Virus genome (UHGV): UHGV-0297898
Length of the DNA: 12,053 nucleotides
DNA from: a virus
Direction: 5' to 3' (one strand)
The notes beneath the pieces are model-generated. The model saw only the letters and a list, made by a program, of their open reading frames with translations, made no database searches and was not told where the DNA came from. Below, in pieces: positions 7,470 through 11,924 of this stretch. The position numbers and the translations under genes were made by a program. Every line of letters starts with the position of its first letter. Position 1 is the first letter of the stretch.

Positions 7470-9203
7470 TTAAAGCGAGCGGATCCCATAGGACTCAATG
7501 TGGTCAGACAACGTGTCTTCTTTCTCGTACAGCATGGCTCTGCCAACCGCCATAATCAGCGCAACTGCACCATCGATTTTGTTTTCCGCCTGCTCTTTAA
7601 CGGGCTTCACCACATCATCGTTACCCGGAATGGTTTTGCCGACCACGTTGCCGATACACCAGGTCATGATGGGATTGCCATCATGATGAAAGCGCCCCGA
7701 TTCAATTGCCGCTTCCAGCTCTTTCATCGGGTCGGACATGTTGGTGTAGTTCTGAATGATAGTGATGGGGTTCAGGTCTTCATCAGCAAGGTCATGTGAC
7801 AACCCGGTCGCCCCGAAGGGGTCGATGGGTGACTCACTGACCGGGCTGATTTTGTTCGCCGCTTTGGCCTCCTCGAGGATGTAGCGATAATCCACCTCCG
7901 CACCATCGGTAACGGTCAGAACGCCCATTTCCACCCATTTCTGAAAGCGTTCGGCTGTCCGTCGATCTTCATTTTTCTCGACGCTGTACACCGTGTCATA
8001 CGGTACCCAGAAACGCGGGGCCACACTGTAGTAATGCGTTTTACCGTCAATCTCGCGGGTATAAAGTCGCGCCATGCTGTTCATATCCAGCTTACGCGCC
8101 AGGTCAAAGGCCAGAATGCACGGCTGCCCCTCGAACTGCTCAAGGGTCAGTGATTTATCCTCGCAGCTCTGCCAGCTCACCAGGTTGAAATACGCCGAAC
8201 GCGCCGACACCCAGATATTGAGGTGTTTTGTTTTAAAGACGTTTGCCAGACGGGCGTTATTTTTCGCACGCTGCTGCTGACTTAACAAAAATTCGCGATA
8301 AACCGACACGCCAATATTTGGATTGGCTTTTTCCAGCACCTGCGGGTCGGTCCAGTCGTCACCTTCATCAACGGTATAGATGATCCCGAACAGTTCATCG
8401 TTAGGCACCGAGCCGTTGAGCATCTCGATGACTTCCCGCCGTTTGTCGTAGCACGGCCCCTCAATGTTGTACCCGGCGGTAGTGATAGCCCACATCAGTG
8501 GCTGACGTCGCGCCCCCATCCCGGTAAGCATCGTGGTGTAAAGCGCATCTGTGGCGTGCTCGTGATATTCATCCACCACCGCACAGTGGGGTGATGAACC
8601 ATCACCGGGGTTACAGATCAGCGGTTCAAAACGCGCACCATCCTCCGGACGGTTCATGTTTGAGGCGTTAACCTCAATCCCGAACGCTTCCGTCAGCATG
8701 GGTGTGCGTTTACACATCAGTCTTGCCGGACGAAAGACTTCCCATGCCTGTTTCTCCGTCGTGGCACCGGAATACACTTCCGCGCCGAACTCGTTATCAC
8801 AGGCAAAACAATACAGGGCGACACCGGCAGAGATTGCCGATTTGCCGTTCTTACGGGGGATTTCGGTATACACCTCACGGAAGCGGCGCAGCCGGGAGCC
8901 TTTATTGACCCAGCCAAACGCGCAGCAGATCACAAAGAGCTGCCACGGCTCCAGCGTGATGGGCATCCTCTTAAATGCCCACTCACCCTTGGTGTGCGGC
9001 AACAGCTGAATAAATTTCGCGGCCCGTTCAGCCAGGTCCTTGTCGAAGCGGTAACGAAACGACTTACTTTTTTCCTCCATTAGGTCATCAAGATGGCGCT
9101 GGCAGGCCTGAATCACAAACTGGCAGGCCACAATCTTTCCGCGCACGACATCACGGGCATACTGATTGGCAGCATTTACGTTGGGGTAAGATTTCCGGCT
9201 CAT
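7470..9203 (-). CDS. Terminase large subunit
   Basis: 577-aa ORF, ATG at 9203..9201 overlapping the terS stop (ATGA). Contains Walker A-like PRKNGKS and Walker B-like CAVVDEYHE motifs in the N-terminal ATPase region; followed by the portal gene. Confidence 0.9.
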
Positions 9204-9694
9204 GATTCGATGATTTTCAGAAACGGGTTAGTGGCTTTCTTCTGCCCCGCCAGGCCAATCAGACGCTGGCGGCTGCTGGGGTCGAGTCCGAGCATTGCCC
9301 CCGTACTGCTCATCTCGGACTCCTGTTCTTTTTTGGCGGTCAGCTCCGGATTTTTGACCATACCGCCCATTGCACCGGTGATGGTGTTGCCCTGTCTGGC
9401 AATATTTTTCACGGCACGTCGCCAGAACTCGTAGGCCACGCACCACCGCTCAAGCACCGCGAGGTCAGTCACGCACAGCAGGCCCTGACCGCAGAGTTCT
9501 TTAGTTGTCAGTTGCCACATGATCGTAGCGAGAGGGAGATCTTCTTCAGCGAACCACTCCGGTGGCTCAACACCTTTGATGGGCGTAAAAACAGGTTCAT
9601 CTTTATTCAGGGCTCGCTTGCCGGGGTTTCCGGCCAGCGCCTTGCGCGCCGTTGGCTTGGGGCGACGCCCGGAACGCCCCGCCGTTCCAGCCAT
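9200..9694 (-). CDS. Terminase small subunit (P27-family-like)
   Basis: Preferred start is ATG at 9694..9692 (AGGAG SD 8 nt upstream), giving 164 aa beginning [36 protein letters not shown]. The track's start at 9703 is a GTG that lies inside the SD. Basic N-terminus and position upstream of terL fit terS. Confidence 0.8.
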
Positions 9695-9730
9695 ATGCGG
9701 CACTCCTGGTTAAATTTCATTTTTCGCGGG

Positions 9731-9800
9731 TATAAAAAAACGATGGGGCGGGCAGTCCGGAAGACGTCAGGCCGCAGGGATTTGACCCGCCCCTCCCCTC
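9731..9800. other. Candidate cos / terminase recognition region: A-tract plus GC-rich 8-bp inverted repeat
   Basis: GGGGCGGG (9745-9752) and CCCGCCCC (9786-9793) form an inverted repeat separated by 33 nt that contains a GACGTC palindrome; an A7 tract lies at 9734-9740. Located in the 125-bp HNH-terS intergenic space, where cos sits in HK97-like phages. The start GGGGCGGGCAG loosely resembles GC-rich lambdoid cohesive ends. Placement is positional inference only. Confidence 0.3.
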
Positions 9801-9819
9801 AGGAAGTTGAGAATCATTA

Positions 9820-10170
9820 TCACTTCAACCGTTCACGGGCCGTCTTCGCCTTATGACACGGCCAGCACAGACTCTGCAGATTACAGTCGGCATCAGTGCC
9901 GCCATGCGCTTTAGGGATGATGTGGTCAACGGTTTTCGCTTCACGCACCACACCGGCACGCAGACATAACTGACATAAACCTTTGTCACGTTTCAGTACA
10001 CGTTCACGGATAGCATCCCATTTCGAACCGTAGCCGCGCTGATGACGGGATTGTCCTGGCTTGTATTGCTTCCAGCCTTCGCTTTTGTGGCTTTCGCAGT
10101 AGCCTGACGGGTCAGTAGTGGTATGGCGGCAGCCGCGAACGCGGCAGGATTTTGGGATTCGTGGTGGCAT
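9820..10170 (-). CDS. HNH endonuclease (terminase-associated)
   Basis: 116-aa ORF, ATG at 10170..10168. Cys-rich N-terminus (CRVRGCRH…CESH) and C-terminal HNH motif DHIIPKAHGGTDADCNLQSLCWPCHKAK. Lies immediately upstream of terS, the arrangement of HNH-dependent cos-packaging phages. Confidence 0.85.
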   Translation of the reverse strand: MPPRIPKSCRVRGCRHTTTDPSGYCESHKSEGWKQYKPGQSRHQRGYGSKWDAIRERVLKRDKGLCQLCLRAGVVREAKTVDHIIPKAHGGTDADCNLQSLCWPCHKAKTARERLK

Positions 10171-10195
10171 TGAAGAAAACTCTTTGTAATAAGCA

Positions 10196-10218
10196 TAAAA
10201 ACCCCATATTGAATGGGG
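10196..10218 (-). terminator. Rho-independent terminator-like hairpin downstream of the moron ORF
   Basis: On the minus strand: CCCCAT-tcaat-ATGGGG followed by TTTTTAT (plus-strand stem 10202-10207 / 10213-10218, A-tract 10196-10201). Sits about 10 nt after the stop of the 168-aa ORF and just upstream of the HNH start. Confidence 0.45.
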
Positions 10219-10227
10219 CTTGATGAA

Positions 10228-10734
10228 TTACTGTCCTAAAGCACTTTTTGCCAATATTGAAGCAATTGAAGCAAACGTCGGATTTTCCAATAGCTTTTGC
10301 CAAAGGCTTTTAACCTCTGGATCATTGCAATGCTCTATAGCATCATGTAGTTGTTGAATGGTTATATTCTTTGTGATCGAATTATCATTACCGGCTTGAA
10401 AATCACCACCAGCATTAATAGCACCGTTAAACGTCAAATGGGTCGTAATCTGCTTCGGCTTCTCTTTTACATCCAATGCCTTCACTATCAATACCGCCAA
10501 ATGTGAGTAGCCAGGGCAACCAACCTCGAGACTAATTTGCACCTCGTAATCAAGCACTTCAAATAGTCTTTCCCTGTCGACCATTTTTTGCACAATGATA
10601 TCGCCGATATTAAATGGGCATAAGTCACTTTCAATAGGAATATACAATCGGCCTTTAGATGAGTCACGTTGACCATAATAGGTGGATGAATTAAAGGTAA
10701 AAGTATCTGGATAGAAAAATTGATCTGGTCTCAT
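10228..10734 (-). CDS. Hypothetical protein (168 aa) encoded in an AT-rich moron island; function unknown
   Basis: ATG at 10734..10732 with weak AAGGGA SD. Protein MRPDQFFYPDTFTFNSSTYYGQRDSSKGRLYIPIESDLCPFNIGDIIVQKMVDRERLFEVLDYEVQ… has no signal peptide or TM segment and no motif I can assign. The gene and its flanks are visibly AT-rich compared with surrounding phage genes, and it has its own promoter-like and terminator elements. Confidence 0.6.
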   Translation of the reverse strand: MRPDQFFYPDTFTFNSSTYYGQRDSSKGRLYIPIESDLCPFNIGDIIVQKMVDRERLFEVLDYEVQISLEVGCPGYSHLAVLIVKALDVKEKPKQITTHLTFNGAINAGGDFQAGNDNSITKNITIQQLHDAIEHCNDPEVKSLWQKLLENPTFASIASILAKSALGQ

Positions 10735-10819
10735 AATAGTCCCTTTTGTGTTTTGTGGATATCTCCATTAATTAGACTATTACTTTATCTCTTTTCCCAA
10801 ATACATACATTCAAAATTA

Positions 10820-10860
10820 AGAGCATTATCACAGATAATTTCGAAGCGATATTGCAATGC
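10820..10860 (-). promoter_or_regulatory. Candidate sigma70 extended -10 promoter for the moron ORF
   Basis: Minus strand reads TGTGATAAT (plus 10825-10833), an extended -10 element, about 90 nt upstream of the moron ATG in a 200-bp AT-rich spacer. A TTGCAA at 10852-10857 is too far (21 nt) to be a canonical -35, so this would act as an extended -10 promoter. Pattern-based only. Confidence 0.3.
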
Positions 10861-10938
10861 CTACCCATGACCTGTATTCAACGAATACGTATCAGAGGAA
10901 TACCTTGTTCGTTATCTACATGACGATAAAAATATACA

Positions 10939-11187
10939 TCAATTTTGATTATCAATGATTCTGATATCTGACTTATCCCTATTACATTGAGCCAACGCGG
11001 ATAACAAACTTACATTCAAATCAAGACTTGCACCATACGTCAGTGGGTTGGGTATAAACGGTACAGGTGTATCAGAAGTCAAGCTGACTGGTAGTGGAGT
11101 CTTCGGAATGCTCACGTAAACTGTTCGCGTACTTCCACAACCGGTCAGCAGCGGCAGCAGGCACAGGGCGTACAGCACAATCATCAT
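10939..11187 (-). CDS. Rz1-like outer-membrane lipoprotein (o-spanin)
   Basis: Internal ATG-ATG at 11187..11182 within the track's longer ORF gives MMIVLYALCLLPLLTGC…, a lipoprotein signal with lipobox LTGC. Mature part is proline-rich (PKTPLPVSLTSDTPVPFIPNPL), typical of Rz1. Starts inside the Rz gene in the +1 frame and runs 133 nt past the Rz stop (overlapped rather than embedded). Confidence 0.6.
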   Translation of the reverse strand: MMIVLYALCLLPLLTGCGSTRTVYVSIPKTPLPVSLTSDTPVPFIPNPLTYGASLDLNVSLLSALAQCNRDKSDIRIIDNQN

Positions 11188-11464
11188 CCGCAACAGCCAC
11201 TTTGATATCAGCCTGGGTTCTCTGTGACTCCAGTGCGATCTGCTGTTTTGCATGCTGGTTAGCCTCCAGAACTGTATTGACGATTTGCAGTGATTGCAGG
11301 ACGTTATTGGTAATAGCGGTTGCCGATTCGGCATTTTGTACAGCCTCATCAGCACGTTTCTTTTCGCGCTGGTATTTGCTGTGGTAGTGGTTAGCTGACC
11401 AGACGAGAGAACCGAATAAAGTCAGGAGGAAAGCAGAAATAACCAGCTTATAGCGAAGTTTCAT
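11072..11464 (-). CDS. Rz-like inner-membrane spanin (i-spanin)
   Basis: Preferred start is ATG at 11464..11462 (MKLRYKLVISAFLLTLFGSLVW…), giving 130 aa; the track's start at 11497 is a TTG. One N-terminal TM helix followed by a charged, coiled-coil-like periplasmic domain; located directly after the endolysin gene. Confidence 0.7.
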   Translation of the reverse strand: MKLRYKLVISAFLLTLFGSLVWSANHYHSKYQREKKRADEAVQNAESATAITNNVLQSLQIVNTVLEANQHAKQQIALESQRTQADIKVAVADDDCAVRPVPAAAADRLWKYANSLREHSEDSTTSQLDF

Positions 11465-11924
11465 TAACCACCCCGCCAGCTTCTTTGAATTTGGCAATCA
11501 GACTATCGATCTTGTGTTCATACTGACCGTAGCCAGCACCGGGCAATGAAGCCCAAATATTGCTGCAACGGTCGATTGCCTGACGAATATTGCCACGGTC
11601 AATCATCGGTAAAGCGCCACGCTCTTTAATCTGCTGCAGAGCTACAGCGTCCTGGCTTTCTGGAGAAAAATCTTTCAGGCCAAGCTGTTTACGGTAAGCA
11701 TCCCACCAGCGTGAAAGAAGCTGGTAACGTCCGGCGGCTGTTGACTTGAGTTTCGGGTTTAGCGTGACAAGTTTGCGAGGGTGATCGGAGTAATCAGTGA
11801 AGAGTTCACCACCGACAATAACGTCATAACCGTGGTTACGTGTCGGTTGTCGTCCGTTATCCGTTCCTTCTGACCAAGCCACCATATCAAGGAAAGCTTT
11901 ACGCTGGGAATTTAGTACCTGCAT
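11448..11924 (-). CDS. R: Endolysin, lambda R-type lytic transglycosylase
   Basis: 158-aa ORF, ATG at 11924..11922. Near-identical over most of its length to phage lambda R as I recall it (…QRKAFLDM.AWSEGTDNGRQ.TRNHGYDVIVGGELFTDYSDHPRKLVTLNPKLKST.AGRYQLLSRWWDAYRKQLGLKDFSP…), differing mainly at the extreme N- and C-termini. Confidence 0.9.
   Translation of the reverse strand: MQVLNSQRKAFLDMVAWSEGTDNGRQPTRNHGYDVIVGGELFTDYSDHPRKLVTLNPKLKSTAAGRYQLLSRWWDAYRKQLGLKDFSPESQDAVALQQIKERGALPMIDRGNIRQAIDRCSNIWASLPGAGYGQYEHKIDSLIAKFKEAGGVVNETSL

What the first reader, a model, noticed from the sequence alone, without database searches (positions are those of the whole stretch)
10180..10940. AT-rich moron island with a 168-aa orphan protein inserted between the lysis cassette and the HNH-terminase genes
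Composition drops sharply here (by eye roughly 35-40% GC against well over 50% in flanking phage genes; not computed). The island is a self-contained unit on the same strand as the late operon: an extended -10 promoter-like element, one ORF, and a terminator hairpin with U-tract. This is the classic signature of a horizontally acquired moron. The protein has no signal peptide, TM segment or motif I can assign, and the lysis-to-packaging junction is a known site for accessory genes in lambdoid phages. It is the best candidate here for an undescribed accessory function (for example superinfection exclusion or anti-phage defence, or a host-fitness factor).
Basis: partly seen in the sequence, partly recalled or inferred. 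Interest (0 to 1): 0.7.

Follow-up and report, generated by a model that had tools for sequence, protein, structure and literature searches.

The report
AT-rich prophage moron, RHIM-like protein
A foreign, AT-rich single-gene cassette sits in a swap-prone slot between the lysis and DNA-packaging genes of an E. coli prophage. Its uncharacterised protein has a conserved stretch that resembles the self-assembly motifs of cell-death signalling, which makes it a testable candidate for a new phage-versus-phage defence.

Summary
Window 10176-10950 is an AT-rich island: the ORF has GC 0.39 and GC3 0.35, against GC3 0.54-0.68 in the packaging genes. It holds one minus-strand ORF (10228-10734, 168 aa), a terminator hairpin with a T-run, and an extended -10-like TGTGATAAT.

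The window is 100% identical to the SfV-like Escherichia phage vB_EcoM-689R6. The Rz1/HNH junction is a cargo hotspot: 1256 of 5426 complete E. coli genomes match the flanks, but only 29 carry this island. Related phages have nothing there or unrelated AT-rich genes.

The protein is not an orphan. It belongs to PHROG 5789 (function unknown), a small family that, in every locus I inspected where the neighbouring genes were informative, lies in a prophage or a capsid-encoding satellite. There are no Pfam, NCBIfam or PADLOC matches.

New finding: the family is modular. It has an interchangeable N-terminal domain (here a confident beta-barrel), an N/Q/G-rich motif with invariant Q-x-G-x-x-N, and a three-helix C-terminal module. 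The motif resembles RHIM and HET-s amyloid-signalling motifs, but only below threshold.

My best reading is a lysogen-expressed defence or exclusion protein that acts by triggered self-assembly. The moron status is solid. The function and the mechanism are inferred.

The parts
10176..10950 (.). AT-rich island (moron cassette). It is bounded by the 3' end of Rz1 and the start of the HNH gene.
   Evidence: GC profile and per-gene GC and GC3. In the alignment with phage 720R4, homology breaks near the Rz1 stop codon and resumes a few bases before the HNH ATG.
10825..10833 (-). Extended -10-like element TGTGATAAT, a candidate moron promoter. It is a consensus match only.
   Evidence: Single occurrence in the window; 15 of 200 shuffles contain it. 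No canonical -35 at 16-18 nt.
10740..10745 (-). Shine-Dalgarno-like AAGGGA, 5 nt upstream of the ATG.
   Evidence: Read directly from the sequence.
10228..10734 (-). ORF of 168 aa, a PHROG 5789 family member of unknown function.
   Evidence: Full-length homologues at 49-73% identity.
10465..10734 (-). N-terminal beta-barrel domain (aa 1-90), the variable module of the family.
10354..10431 (-). Conserved N/Q/G-rich motif FNGAINAGGDFQAGNDNSITKNITIQ (aa 102-127). Q113, G115 and N118 are invariant. It is RHIM-like.
   Evidence: Invariant columns. Motif table. Pfam RHIM and HET-S sub-threshold hits in relatives. Modelled as disordered.
10231..10359 (-). C-terminal three-helix module (aa 126-168). 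It ends in an Ala/Ser/Gly-rich hydrophobic helix (TFASIASILAKSALGQ).
10194..10221 (-). Intrinsic-terminator-like hairpin (AAGCCCCAT-TCAAT-ATGGGGTTT) with a T-run.
9820..10170 (-). HNH endonuclease gene, the downstream boundary of the cargo slot.
   Evidence: Pfam HNH, E 5.2e-15.
10939..11150 (-). Rz1/LysC o-spanin coding region (approximate start), the upstream boundary of the cargo slot.
   Evidence: Pfam LysC, E 6e-15, on aa 69-136 of ORF 10939-11355. RefSeq annotation lysC.

Best explanation
The island is a horizontally acquired single-gene cassette (a moron). It occupies a cargo slot between Rz/Rz1 and the HNH-terminase genes of an SfV-like E. coli prophage.

It encodes a cytoplasmic 168-aa protein of a small modular family. 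In every locus I inspected where the neighbouring genes were informative, the family gene lies in a phage or a phage satellite. The protein has three parts: (i) an N-terminal beta-barrel, which other family members replace with unrelated small domains; (ii) an invariant Q-x-G-x-x-N motif rich in N, Q, G, S and T; and (iii) a three-helix C-terminal module ending in an Ala/Gly/Ser-rich hydrophobic helix.

Proposed mechanism. The gene is expressed from the prophage. The N-domain acts as a sensor for a cue from an incoming or competing phage. The central motif, disordered in the resting monomer, then drives cooperative RHIM- or HET-s-like (cross-beta) self-assembly. That assembly activates or concentrates the C-terminal helical module, which blocks the infection or kills the cell (abortive infection or exclusion).

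Shown: cassette anatomy, foreign composition, variable presence at a hotspot, family modularity, and the MGE setting of the inspected loci. Inferred: expression in the lysogen, the defence role, the sensor role of the N-domain, and amyloid-like assembly.

My confidence by step: moron, about 0.9; inter-phage competition or defence role, about 0.5; motif-driven self-assembly, about 0.25.
For: Foreign composition, with its own terminator and a promoter-like element.

Hotspot with alternative cargo: 29 of the 1256 E. coli genomes that share the flanks carry the island. At least seven other occupancy states were seen.

The family occurs in many MGE settings:
- after the lysis cassette in four different lambdoid or HK97-like prophages (window);
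- on the opposite strand between structural or replication genes;
- beside the Abi gene BstA at a prophage edge;
- in integrase-AlpA-primase elements, three of them truncated by a contig end, and between primase and capsid genes of such elements in two complete loci (L042, L046).

The cassette is AT-rich relative to its flanks in most of ten loci and has its own terminator-like hairpin with a T-run in most of them.

Modularity: about 25 of the 77 profile hits match only the C-terminal half; those whose sequences were fetched carry unrelated N-domains such as a Zn-ribbon, wHTH/DUF2513-like domains and other barrels.

The motif is the most conserved part of the family. Q, G and N are invariant in independent MAFFT alignments. 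Across 91 motif segments the composition is 55% N/Q/S/T/G, 29% aliphatic, 7% charged and 0.6% Pro. AF2 nevertheless leaves it unstructured with both 21- and 47-sequence alignments.

Of 24,736 Pfam models, RHIM is the one that most family members hit (10 of 59, best E 0.0015), and HET-S hits 3 of 59.

hhalign of the motif profile against RHIM sequences recalled from memory aligns the cores in register (probability 74.6%, P 2.7e-5).

Precedent: Bab/Agp, an amyloid-signalling Abi system in E. coli prophage hotspots (bioRxiv 10.1101/2024.11.07.622273). The G-phi-Q-phi-G core is shared by RHIM, PP and BASS3 (bioRxiv 10.1101/2020.01.06.895854).
Against: There is no experimental or expression evidence.

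The window protein itself gets no Pfam RHIM hit and has the deviant core F-Q-A-G. All RHIM and HET-S scores that I saw individually are below the gathering scores: 10-16 bits against 20, and 16.4 against 24.3. After allowing for the choice of the best of 59 related proteins, the best E-value is only marginal.

The motif profile found nothing among all PDB chains at E <= 10.

The motif is internal, and no second copy exists in the 43-kb prophage. Known amyloid-signalling pairs differ on both points.

There is no PADLOC match for the window protein and no consistent match for the family.

The promoter is a consensus match only. The gene could be expressed mainly by late-operon read-through.
Confidence: 0.4

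Rival explanations
1. Counter-defence decoy. The phage carries a RHIM- or BASS-like motif to cap or poison a host amyloid-signalling defence such as Bab/Agp, as herpesvirus RHIM proteins block necroptosis. On this view the N- and C-modules serve only for stability or targeting.
For: The motif resembles RHIM. [quoted passage not shown] The gene is phage-borne and lies downstream of the late lysis genes on the same strand.
Against: I could not compare the motif with BASS11 because the Bab sequence was not obtainable. The cassette has moron features (its own terminator, AT-rich, opposite-strand copies), which fit expression in the lysogen better than an early anti-defence gene. The conserved C-module combined with swapped N-domains looks like a sensor-effector design, not a minimal decoy. 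The family is also carried by satellites.
Confidence: 0.1
2. Lysogenic-conversion or host-fitness factor unrelated to phages, for example a stress, metabolic or regulatory adaptor expressed from the prophage.
Against: The protein has no signal peptide or TM segment, so it is not a surface factor. The PilZ motifs RxxxR and D/NxSxxG are absent. In every inspected locus with informative neighbours the family gene lies in a phage or satellite, including satellites whose accessory slots typically hold anti-phage genes (established knowledge; contexts).
Confidence: 0.12
3. Late lysis or egress accessory protein, for example a lysis-timing or membrane-associated helper, co-transcribed with the holin-endolysin-spanin cassette.
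For: It lies immediately downstream of Rz/Rz1 on the same strand in the window and in three other phage types. It has a hydrophobic Ala/Gly-rich C-terminal helix.
Against: It is absent from most close relatives, which have the same lysis genes. Homologues sit far from lysis genes and on the opposite strand in other elements, and in satellites where no lysis cassette was seen within the fetched flanks. It has no TM segment and no similarity to holins, antiholins or spanins.
Confidence: 0.07
4. Selfish or near-neutral hitch-hiker, for example an addiction-type toxin or a decaying remnant, with no benefit to phage or host.
For: It is rare (29 of 5426 genomes). It has no recognisable catalytic domain. 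Truncated copies exist (P0003 at 118 aa, P0020, P0022).
Against: The full-length architecture is conserved down to about 25% identity across Escherichia, Serratia, Klebsiella, Pluralibacter, Vibrio and Pokkaliibacter. The motif has invariant residues. No adjacent antitoxin-like partner is conserved.
Confidence: 0.1

Closest known systems
Morons of lambdoid and HK97-like phages (established knowledge: Hendrix-lab definition; examples are lambda bor beside the lysis genes and HK97 gp15)
   Same: A foreign-composition single gene between two conserved late genes, with its own terminator and a promoter-like element, variably present among close relatives.
   Different: The cargo protein is unrelated to any described moron product. 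Transcription from its own promoter has not been shown.
Bab/Agp amyloid-signalling abortive infection system of E. coli (BASS11; bioRxiv 10.1101/2024.11.07.622273)
   Same: Encoded in an E. coli prophage region. It is a small protein that combines a short helical module containing a hydrophobic helix with a Gly- and Asn-containing beta-motif that is disordered until triggered.
   Different: [quoted passage not shown] Here there is one protein, the motif is internal, the hydrophobic helix is C-terminal, the sensor would be the N-domain of the same chain, and there is no TPR-GreA/B-PIN partner. No homology was shown.
RHIM (PF12721), fungal PP and bacterial BASS3 motifs
   Same: The core phi-Q-phi-G-x-x-N has the same spacing, and its Q, G and N are the three invariant residues of the family. 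RHIM is the most recurrent Pfam hit.
   Different: All scores I saw individually are below the gathering score, and the window protein gets no hit. The Gly just before the core (G-phi-Q-phi-G) is usually displaced by 2-3 residues. The window subfamily has Ala at the second hydrophobic position (FQAG).
HET-S/HET-s of Podospora (HeLo pore-forming domain plus an amyloid motif)
   Same: The proposed logic is the same: a folded module coupled to a short beta-solenoid-type motif whose templated folding switches on an effector helix. The Pfam HET-S repeat model hits 3 of 59 relatives.
BstA (KilA-N + BstA_C), a single-protein prophage abortive-infection system
   Same: A single-gene prophage accessory locus. 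One family member lies two genes from a BstA gene at a prophage edge.
   Different: There is no sequence or domain similarity. BstA is larger and has a DNA-binding KilA-N domain.
Phage head-tail adaptor, neck or stopper proteins (for example PDB 2kz4, 8vhx_F)
   Different: Identity is 12-13%. There is no sequence similarity to the window's own head-tail proteins. The gene is outside the head-tail module, and it has an extra motif and helical module.

Membership tests
Moron (autonomous accessory cassette in a phage late region) | Base composition distinct from the flanking phage genes | tested here: met
   ORF GC 0.389 and GC3 0.349, against GC3 0.54-0.68 in the packaging genes. Homologues are AT-rich relative to their flanks in most of ten loci.
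Moron (autonomous accessory cassette in a phage late region) | Present in some phages and absent at the same position in close relatives | tested here: met
   Absent in 720R4, SfV and SfIV; other cargo in SKA5, sal3 and E. coli prophages. 29 of the 1256 genomes that share the flanks carry it.
Moron (autonomous accessory cassette in a phage late region) | Own terminator | tested here: met
   Hairpin with T-run at 10221-10194. A comparable hairpin with a T-run follows most of the ten homologues examined.
Moron (autonomous accessory cassette in a phage late region) | Own promoter, active in the lysogen | tested here: inconclusive
   TGTGATAAT at 10825-10833 is a consensus match only (15 of 200 shuffles), and there is no canonical -35. 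Opposite-strand copies in other phages imply autonomous transcription there. Expression cannot be tested with these tools.
RHIM (Pfam PF12721) | Score at or above the Pfam gathering score (20 bits) | tested here: not met
   No hit for the window protein. 10 of 59 relatives hit below threshold; the individual scores I saw were 10.4-15.6 bits.
RHIM (Pfam PF12721) | Core phi-Q-phi-G followed by N at +5 from Q | tested here: met
   F112-Q113-A114-G115-N116-D117-N118. Q, G and N are invariant in A1 and A4. Ala at the second phi position is atypical.
RHIM (Pfam PF12721) | Forms cross-beta fibrils or hetero-amyloid | not testable with these tools
   Only indirect evidence: the composition is 55% N/Q/S/T/G and 0.6% Pro, and the motif is disordered in AF2 monomer models.
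Two-component amyloid signalling (BASS: Bell or Bab effector plus NLR or TGP sensor) | The same motif on the products of two adjacent genes | tested here: not met
   Six-frame scans of the window and of the 43-kb prophage record find the motif once only. No partner is conserved in other loci.
Two-component amyloid signalling (BASS: Bell or Bab effector plus NLR or TGP sensor) | Motif at a protein terminus, next to a Bell/HeLo-type helical effector with an N-terminal hydrophobic helix | tested here: not met
PilZ c-di-GMP receptor | RxxxR and (D/N)xSxxG motifs on the barrel | tested here: not met
Phage head-tail adaptor or stopper | Sequence homology and a position in the head-tail joining module | tested here: not met
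Catalogued anti-phage defence systems (PADLOC-DB v2.0.0) | Match to a system protein model | tested here: not met
   No match for the window protein. Among 59 relatives, three single-member hits to three different models (best: PDC-S53, E 1.9e-4).
Holin, antiholin or spanin lysis proteins | TM segments or a lipobox, and family similarity | tested here: not met
   The highest KD19 is 1.25 and lies in the barrel. Pfam and PHROG give no lysis family.

The most novel reading that the evidence does not exclude
PHROG 5789 proteins are single-chain, amyloid-switched immune effectors carried by temperate phages and capsid-encoding satellites. A swappable N-terminal sensor recognises a component of an invading phage. 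In this protein the sensor is a barrel that resembles head-tail adaptors, so it might dock on assembling portal or neck rings. Clustering of the sensor then nucleates a RHIM- or HET-s-like cross-beta assembly of the central motif, and that assembly releases the C-terminal helices to kill or arrest the cell. This would be a one-protein bacterial counterpart of RIPK/RHIM and HET-S signalling, with a plug-in sensor platform.
Probability: 0.2. Interest if true: 0.85.

Novelty: new variant of a known kind. Interest (0 to 1): 0.6.

Why it matters
The cassette itself is an ordinary kind of thing: a moron in a cargo hotspot. Its cargo, however, belongs to a family that appears in no defence catalogue, in no Pfam or NCBIfam model, and in none of the papers found in the searchable library.

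The family's design is a swappable small N-domain, an invariant N/Q/G-rich motif and a conserved helical tail. It is spread over prophages and satellites of several gammaproteobacterial genera. This design is what one expects of a sensor-effector immune protein.

If the RHIM-like motif really drives assembly, functional-amyloid signalling in bacteria would extend from two-gene NLR- or TGP-linked systems to a minimal one-gene format. It would also give an easily engineered system, only 168 aa long, for studying triggered amyloid switches.

Even if the amyloid idea fails, the Rz1/HNH slot in SfV-like and HK97-like E. coli prophages is documented here as a productive place to mine accessory genes.

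Tried and rejected
1. The 4708-aa 'relative' P0025, with 13 matched stretches, is a spurious repeat match to an adhesin-like protein (FGTDTFEY repeats against DTFTF). I discarded it.
2. PilZ/c-di-GMP receptor: only a fold-level resemblance and the motifs are absent. Rejected.
3. Structural head-tail protein or a duplicate of the phage's own adaptor: no sequence similarity. The window's adaptor-region ORFs have no PDB relatives.
4. TM or tail-anchored membrane protein: the C-terminal helix is not TM-grade in this subfamily. It is borderline in distant members (mean KD17 1.65; 10 of 54 reach KD19 >= 1.6).
5. Transposon-like insertion: no flanking repeats beyond a single 13-nt pair.
6. cos site inside the island: the SfV genome end maps to about 9762, outside the island.
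7. Searches that gave nothing:
   - The motif-only protein search was either too short or returned only family members.
   - The afdb50 library was unavailable.
   - BFVD Foldseek gave one hit at E 5e-5 with TM 0.36 and no name.
   - The PDB sequence searches with the single protein and with profiles A3 and A6 gave nothing significant.
   - The literature search for phrog_5789 gave nothing.
8. I could not obtain the Bab or BASS11 sequences, so similarity to BASS11 is untested. From the residue numbers given in the paper (I87-G88-S89-V90 ... D99-N100), the register would be compatible with IGS(I/V)..G.....G(N/D)N. That is only a lead.
Treat it as a lead, not a test.
Full report
OBSERVATION

The described feature is real. 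Sliding-window GC falls from 0.55-0.59 (9601-10050) to 0.33-0.40 across 10201-11100, then returns to 0.51. Per gene, the 168-aa ORF (10228-10734, minus strand) has GC 0.389 and GC3 0.349, and the 204-nt spacer upstream has GC 0.324. The HNH, TerS, TerL and portal genes have GC3 0.54-0.68, and the lysis genes have GC of about 0.49.

All phage genes in the window are on the minus strand. In transcription order they are: endolysin (11448-11924), Rz (11072-11497) with embedded Rz1/LysC (ending at about 10939), the island, HNH (9820-10170), TerS (9200-9703) and TerL (7470-9203).

The ORF has a Shine-Dalgarno-like AAGGGA 5 nt before its ATG. It is followed by a 9-bp hairpin and a T-run at 10221-10194.

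It is a consensus match only. 15 of 200 shuffles of the window contain the 9-mer, no -35 lies at a canonical distance, and the promoter scan shows no enrichment.

WHERE THE WINDOW COMES FROM, AND THE SLOT

The region is 100% identical to Escherichia phage vB_EcoM-689R6 (ON470584), an SfV-like temperate phage integrated next to icd.

In the closest relatives the flanks are conserved but the island is not. Phage 720R4 goes from Rz1 to HNH through a short unrelated spacer. SfV and SfIV also lack the island. SKA5 has an unrelated 106-aa ORF, and Salmonella phage 118970_sal3 has two other small ORFs.

Among 5426 complete E. coli genomes, 1256 match the flanking genes but only 29 carry the island, all at 98.9% identity or more.

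Sampling genomes in which both flanks match shows further cargo in the slot:
- a DUF2513 protein plus a 64-aa ORF;
- a 111-aa plus a 189-aa pair on the opposite strand;
- a 184-aa protein;
- a 113-aa protein;
- a GrlR-family regulator;
- or nothing.

The six cargo ORFs in this list whose sequence I extracted have GC 0.35-0.46; the two phage cargos have GC 0.32-0.39.

The island has no flanking repeats. The SfV genome end (cos) maps outside it, at about 9762. The junction is therefore a recombinational cargo hotspot, and this island is one rare occupant.

THE PROTEIN IS NOT AN ORPHAN

It has no Pfam, NCBIfam or PADLOC match. It matches PHROG 5789 (function unknown) at E 1.2e-79.

A search of 5.8 billion proteins gave 22 clusters of close relatives (49-73% identity, full length, 165-171 aa), some from Escherichia and Serratia. 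A profile search of 1.84 billion cluster representatives gave 77 hits. All 59 that I aligned match PHROG 5789.

In every locus I inspected where the neighbouring genes were informative, the family gene lies in a mobile element:
- after the lysis cassette in three further lambdoid or HK97-like prophages;
- on the opposite strand between injection and primase genes of a Serratia prophage;
- on the opposite strand between portal and large terminase in a BPP-1-like element;
- at a prophage edge two genes from the abortive-infection gene BstA;
- in integrase-AlpA-primase elements of E. coli and Klebsiella, truncated there by a contig end;
- on the opposite strand between the primase and the capsid-protease-portal genes of complete elements that look like capsid-encoding satellites, in Pluralibacter and a metagenome (L042, L046).

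In most of the ten loci examined the gene is AT-rich relative to its flanks (0.35-0.43 against 0.49-0.56). Most of them have their own GC-rich hairpin and T-run. No neighbouring gene is conserved across the loci, so this is a one-gene unit.

ARCHITECTURE

AlphaFold2 with the 21-sequence alignment gives a confident six-stranded beta-barrel for aa 1-90 (pLDDT 76-92). The stretch at aa 91-118 is unstructured (pLDDT below 50), and helices follow from aa 126 to 165.

Modelling aa 90-168 alone with 47 sequences keeps the motif region unstructured (pLDDT 47-52). It gives three helices, with pLDDT 75-89 over most of them.

The last helix (TFASIASILAKSALGQ) is rich in Ala, Ser and Gly but is not TM-grade in this subfamily. 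In distant members it is more hydrophobic, for example STVASIVGAGASALLGLL. Their mean KD17 is 1.65, and 10 of 54 reach the 19-residue TM threshold.

MODULARITY

About 25 of the 77 profile hits match only the C-terminal half of the profile. Those whose sequences I fetched carry unrelated N-terminal domains of similar size: a Zn-ribbon (P0053), winged-helix or DUF2513-like domains (P0056, P0062, P0066, P0071, P0096), other small barrels (P0052, P0075, P0084), and longer extensions.

The constant part is: x-F-N-I-G-S-I-S-G-x-Q-V-Q-V-G-N-x-N-x-Q-x-x-N-I-T-I-Q, then ELVEKVAxSxDPEAKSLLKKLLEN, then STVASIIGAGASALLGLL.

The window subfamily has the variant FNGAINAGGDFQAGNDNSITKNITIQ. A variable small N-domain on a conserved C-terminal module is the design of a sensor-effector protein.

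THE MOTIF

Q113, G115 and N118 are invariant in the close family. The equivalent positions are the only invariant columns in a 43-sequence alignment of distant members.

Across 91 distinct motif segments the composition is 55% N/Q/S/T/G, 29% aliphatic, 7% charged and 0.6% Pro. Aliphatic and polar positions alternate, with Gly at turn positions. It is the most conserved part of the family, yet AF2 leaves it disordered.

I scanned 59 members against all 24,736 Pfam models. The model that most members hit is RHIM (10 of 59, best E 0.0015). The HET-S amyloid-repeat model hits 3 of 59. The hits lie exactly on the motif.

The core phi-Q-phi-G-x-x-N has the spacing of the RHIM core. Dyrka et al. state that RHIM, PP and BASS3 share G-phi-Q-phi-G.

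There are cautions:
- Every score I saw individually is below the gathering score: 10-16 bits against 20 for RHIM, and 16.4 against 24.3 for HET-S.
- The window protein itself gets no hit and has Ala in the core (FQAG).
- The members are related to each other, so the 10 hits amount to one observation.
- The best E-value is marginal after allowing for the choice among 59 proteins.
- The motif profile finds nothing among all PDB chains.
I treat this as a lead.

The motif occurs only once in the 43-kb prophage and is internal. The two-gene, terminal-motif rule of known amyloid signalling is therefore not met.

MECHANISM

A precedent exists in the same biological setting. Bab/Agp is an abortive-infection system in E. 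coli prophage hotspots. In it, a sensor converts the amyloid motif of a small helical effector that has a hydrophobic helix, and the effector then damages the membrane (bioRxiv 10.1101/2024.11.07.622273).

By analogy I propose a one-chain version. The N-domain senses a phage cue. The central motif assembles cooperatively. The C-terminal helices execute. I hold this at about 0.25 for the assembly step, about 0.5 for a role in inter-phage competition or defence, and about 0.9 for the moron status.

The rivals are listed separately with the results that would refute each: a RHIM-like counter-defence decoy, a host-fitness factor, a lysis accessory protein, and a selfish hitch-hiker.

COMPARISON AND NOVELTY

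As a genomic feature this is a new occupant of a known kind of site. As a protein it belongs to no described family of defence, lysis or structural proteins. It fails the membership tests for RHIM (by score), for two-component BASS systems, for PilZ and for head-tail adaptors. It resembles amyloid-controlled effectors in logic but not in architecture.

I found no paper on the family in the searchable library. That does not exclude a description elsewhere.

WHAT LED NOWHERE

- A giant adhesin 'hit' was spurious.
- The motif-only database search was uninformative.
- The afdb50 library was unavailable.
- The Bab sequence could not be obtained, so BASS11 similarity is untested.

Noticed in passing
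window ~9762 (between HNH 9820-10170 and TerS 9200-9703): The linear genome end of phage SfV maps here: the match stops at query position 63 of 9700-11500 and continues at the other end of the SfV record. The cos site therefore probably lies between the HNH and TerS genes, outside the island.
   Followed up: partly
window 11448-11924 (ON470584.1 20920-21396): The GenBank record labels this CDS 'terminase small subunit'. RefSeq annotates the identical sequence as a glycoside hydrolase family 24 protein, and it sits between the holin and Rz genes, so it is likely a mislabelled endolysin.
   Followed up: partly
L044 (ON470584.1) 28-1517, 25329-26138, 35567-37278, 37404-43469: The 'phage' record is a prophage with host flanks (icd, mnmA, hflD). 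It carries other likely cargo: a DNA invertase plus a McrA-like enzyme at one end, a KilA-N protein, and a DUF262 protein plus a 216-aa ORF beside the integrase.
   Followed up: no
L021 986-1387 (E. coli BS15R-A, same Rz1/HNH slot): A 133-aa DUF2513 protein without the RHIM-like motif occupies the slot. In four distant family members, weak sub-threshold DUF2513 hits fall on N-domains fused to the RHIM-like C-module. This suggests domains are shuffled among cargo genes of this kind.
   Followed up: partly
L042 4025-4630 and 4645-5157 (Pluralibacter gergoviae): In a satellite-like element (integrase, AntA/ANT, D5-type primase, then capsid, protease, portal), a 201-aa ORF with an N-terminal TM helix ends 15 nt before the family gene. 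It may be a partner in that lineage only.
   Followed up: partly
L015-L017, L045 (E. coli and Klebsiella contig ends): In several draft assemblies the family gene is cut off by a contig end inside integrase-AlpA-primase elements. NCBI therefore lists many 'partial' C-terminal fragments of 70-94 aa. Assemblies seem to break repeatedly at this locus.
   Followed up: no
alignment A3 (one unidentified member): One of 59 family members hits the PADLOC candidate single-gene system PDC-S53 at E 1.9e-4. I did not identify which member or which domain.
   Followed up: no
E. coli genomes H71 and H72 (NZ_CP016358, NZ_CP193494), same slot: A GrlR-family regulatory protein is annotated between HNH and Rz1/LysC in some strains, including an O121 strain. 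A virulence-regulator homologue is thus another cargo of this hotspot.
   Followed up: no
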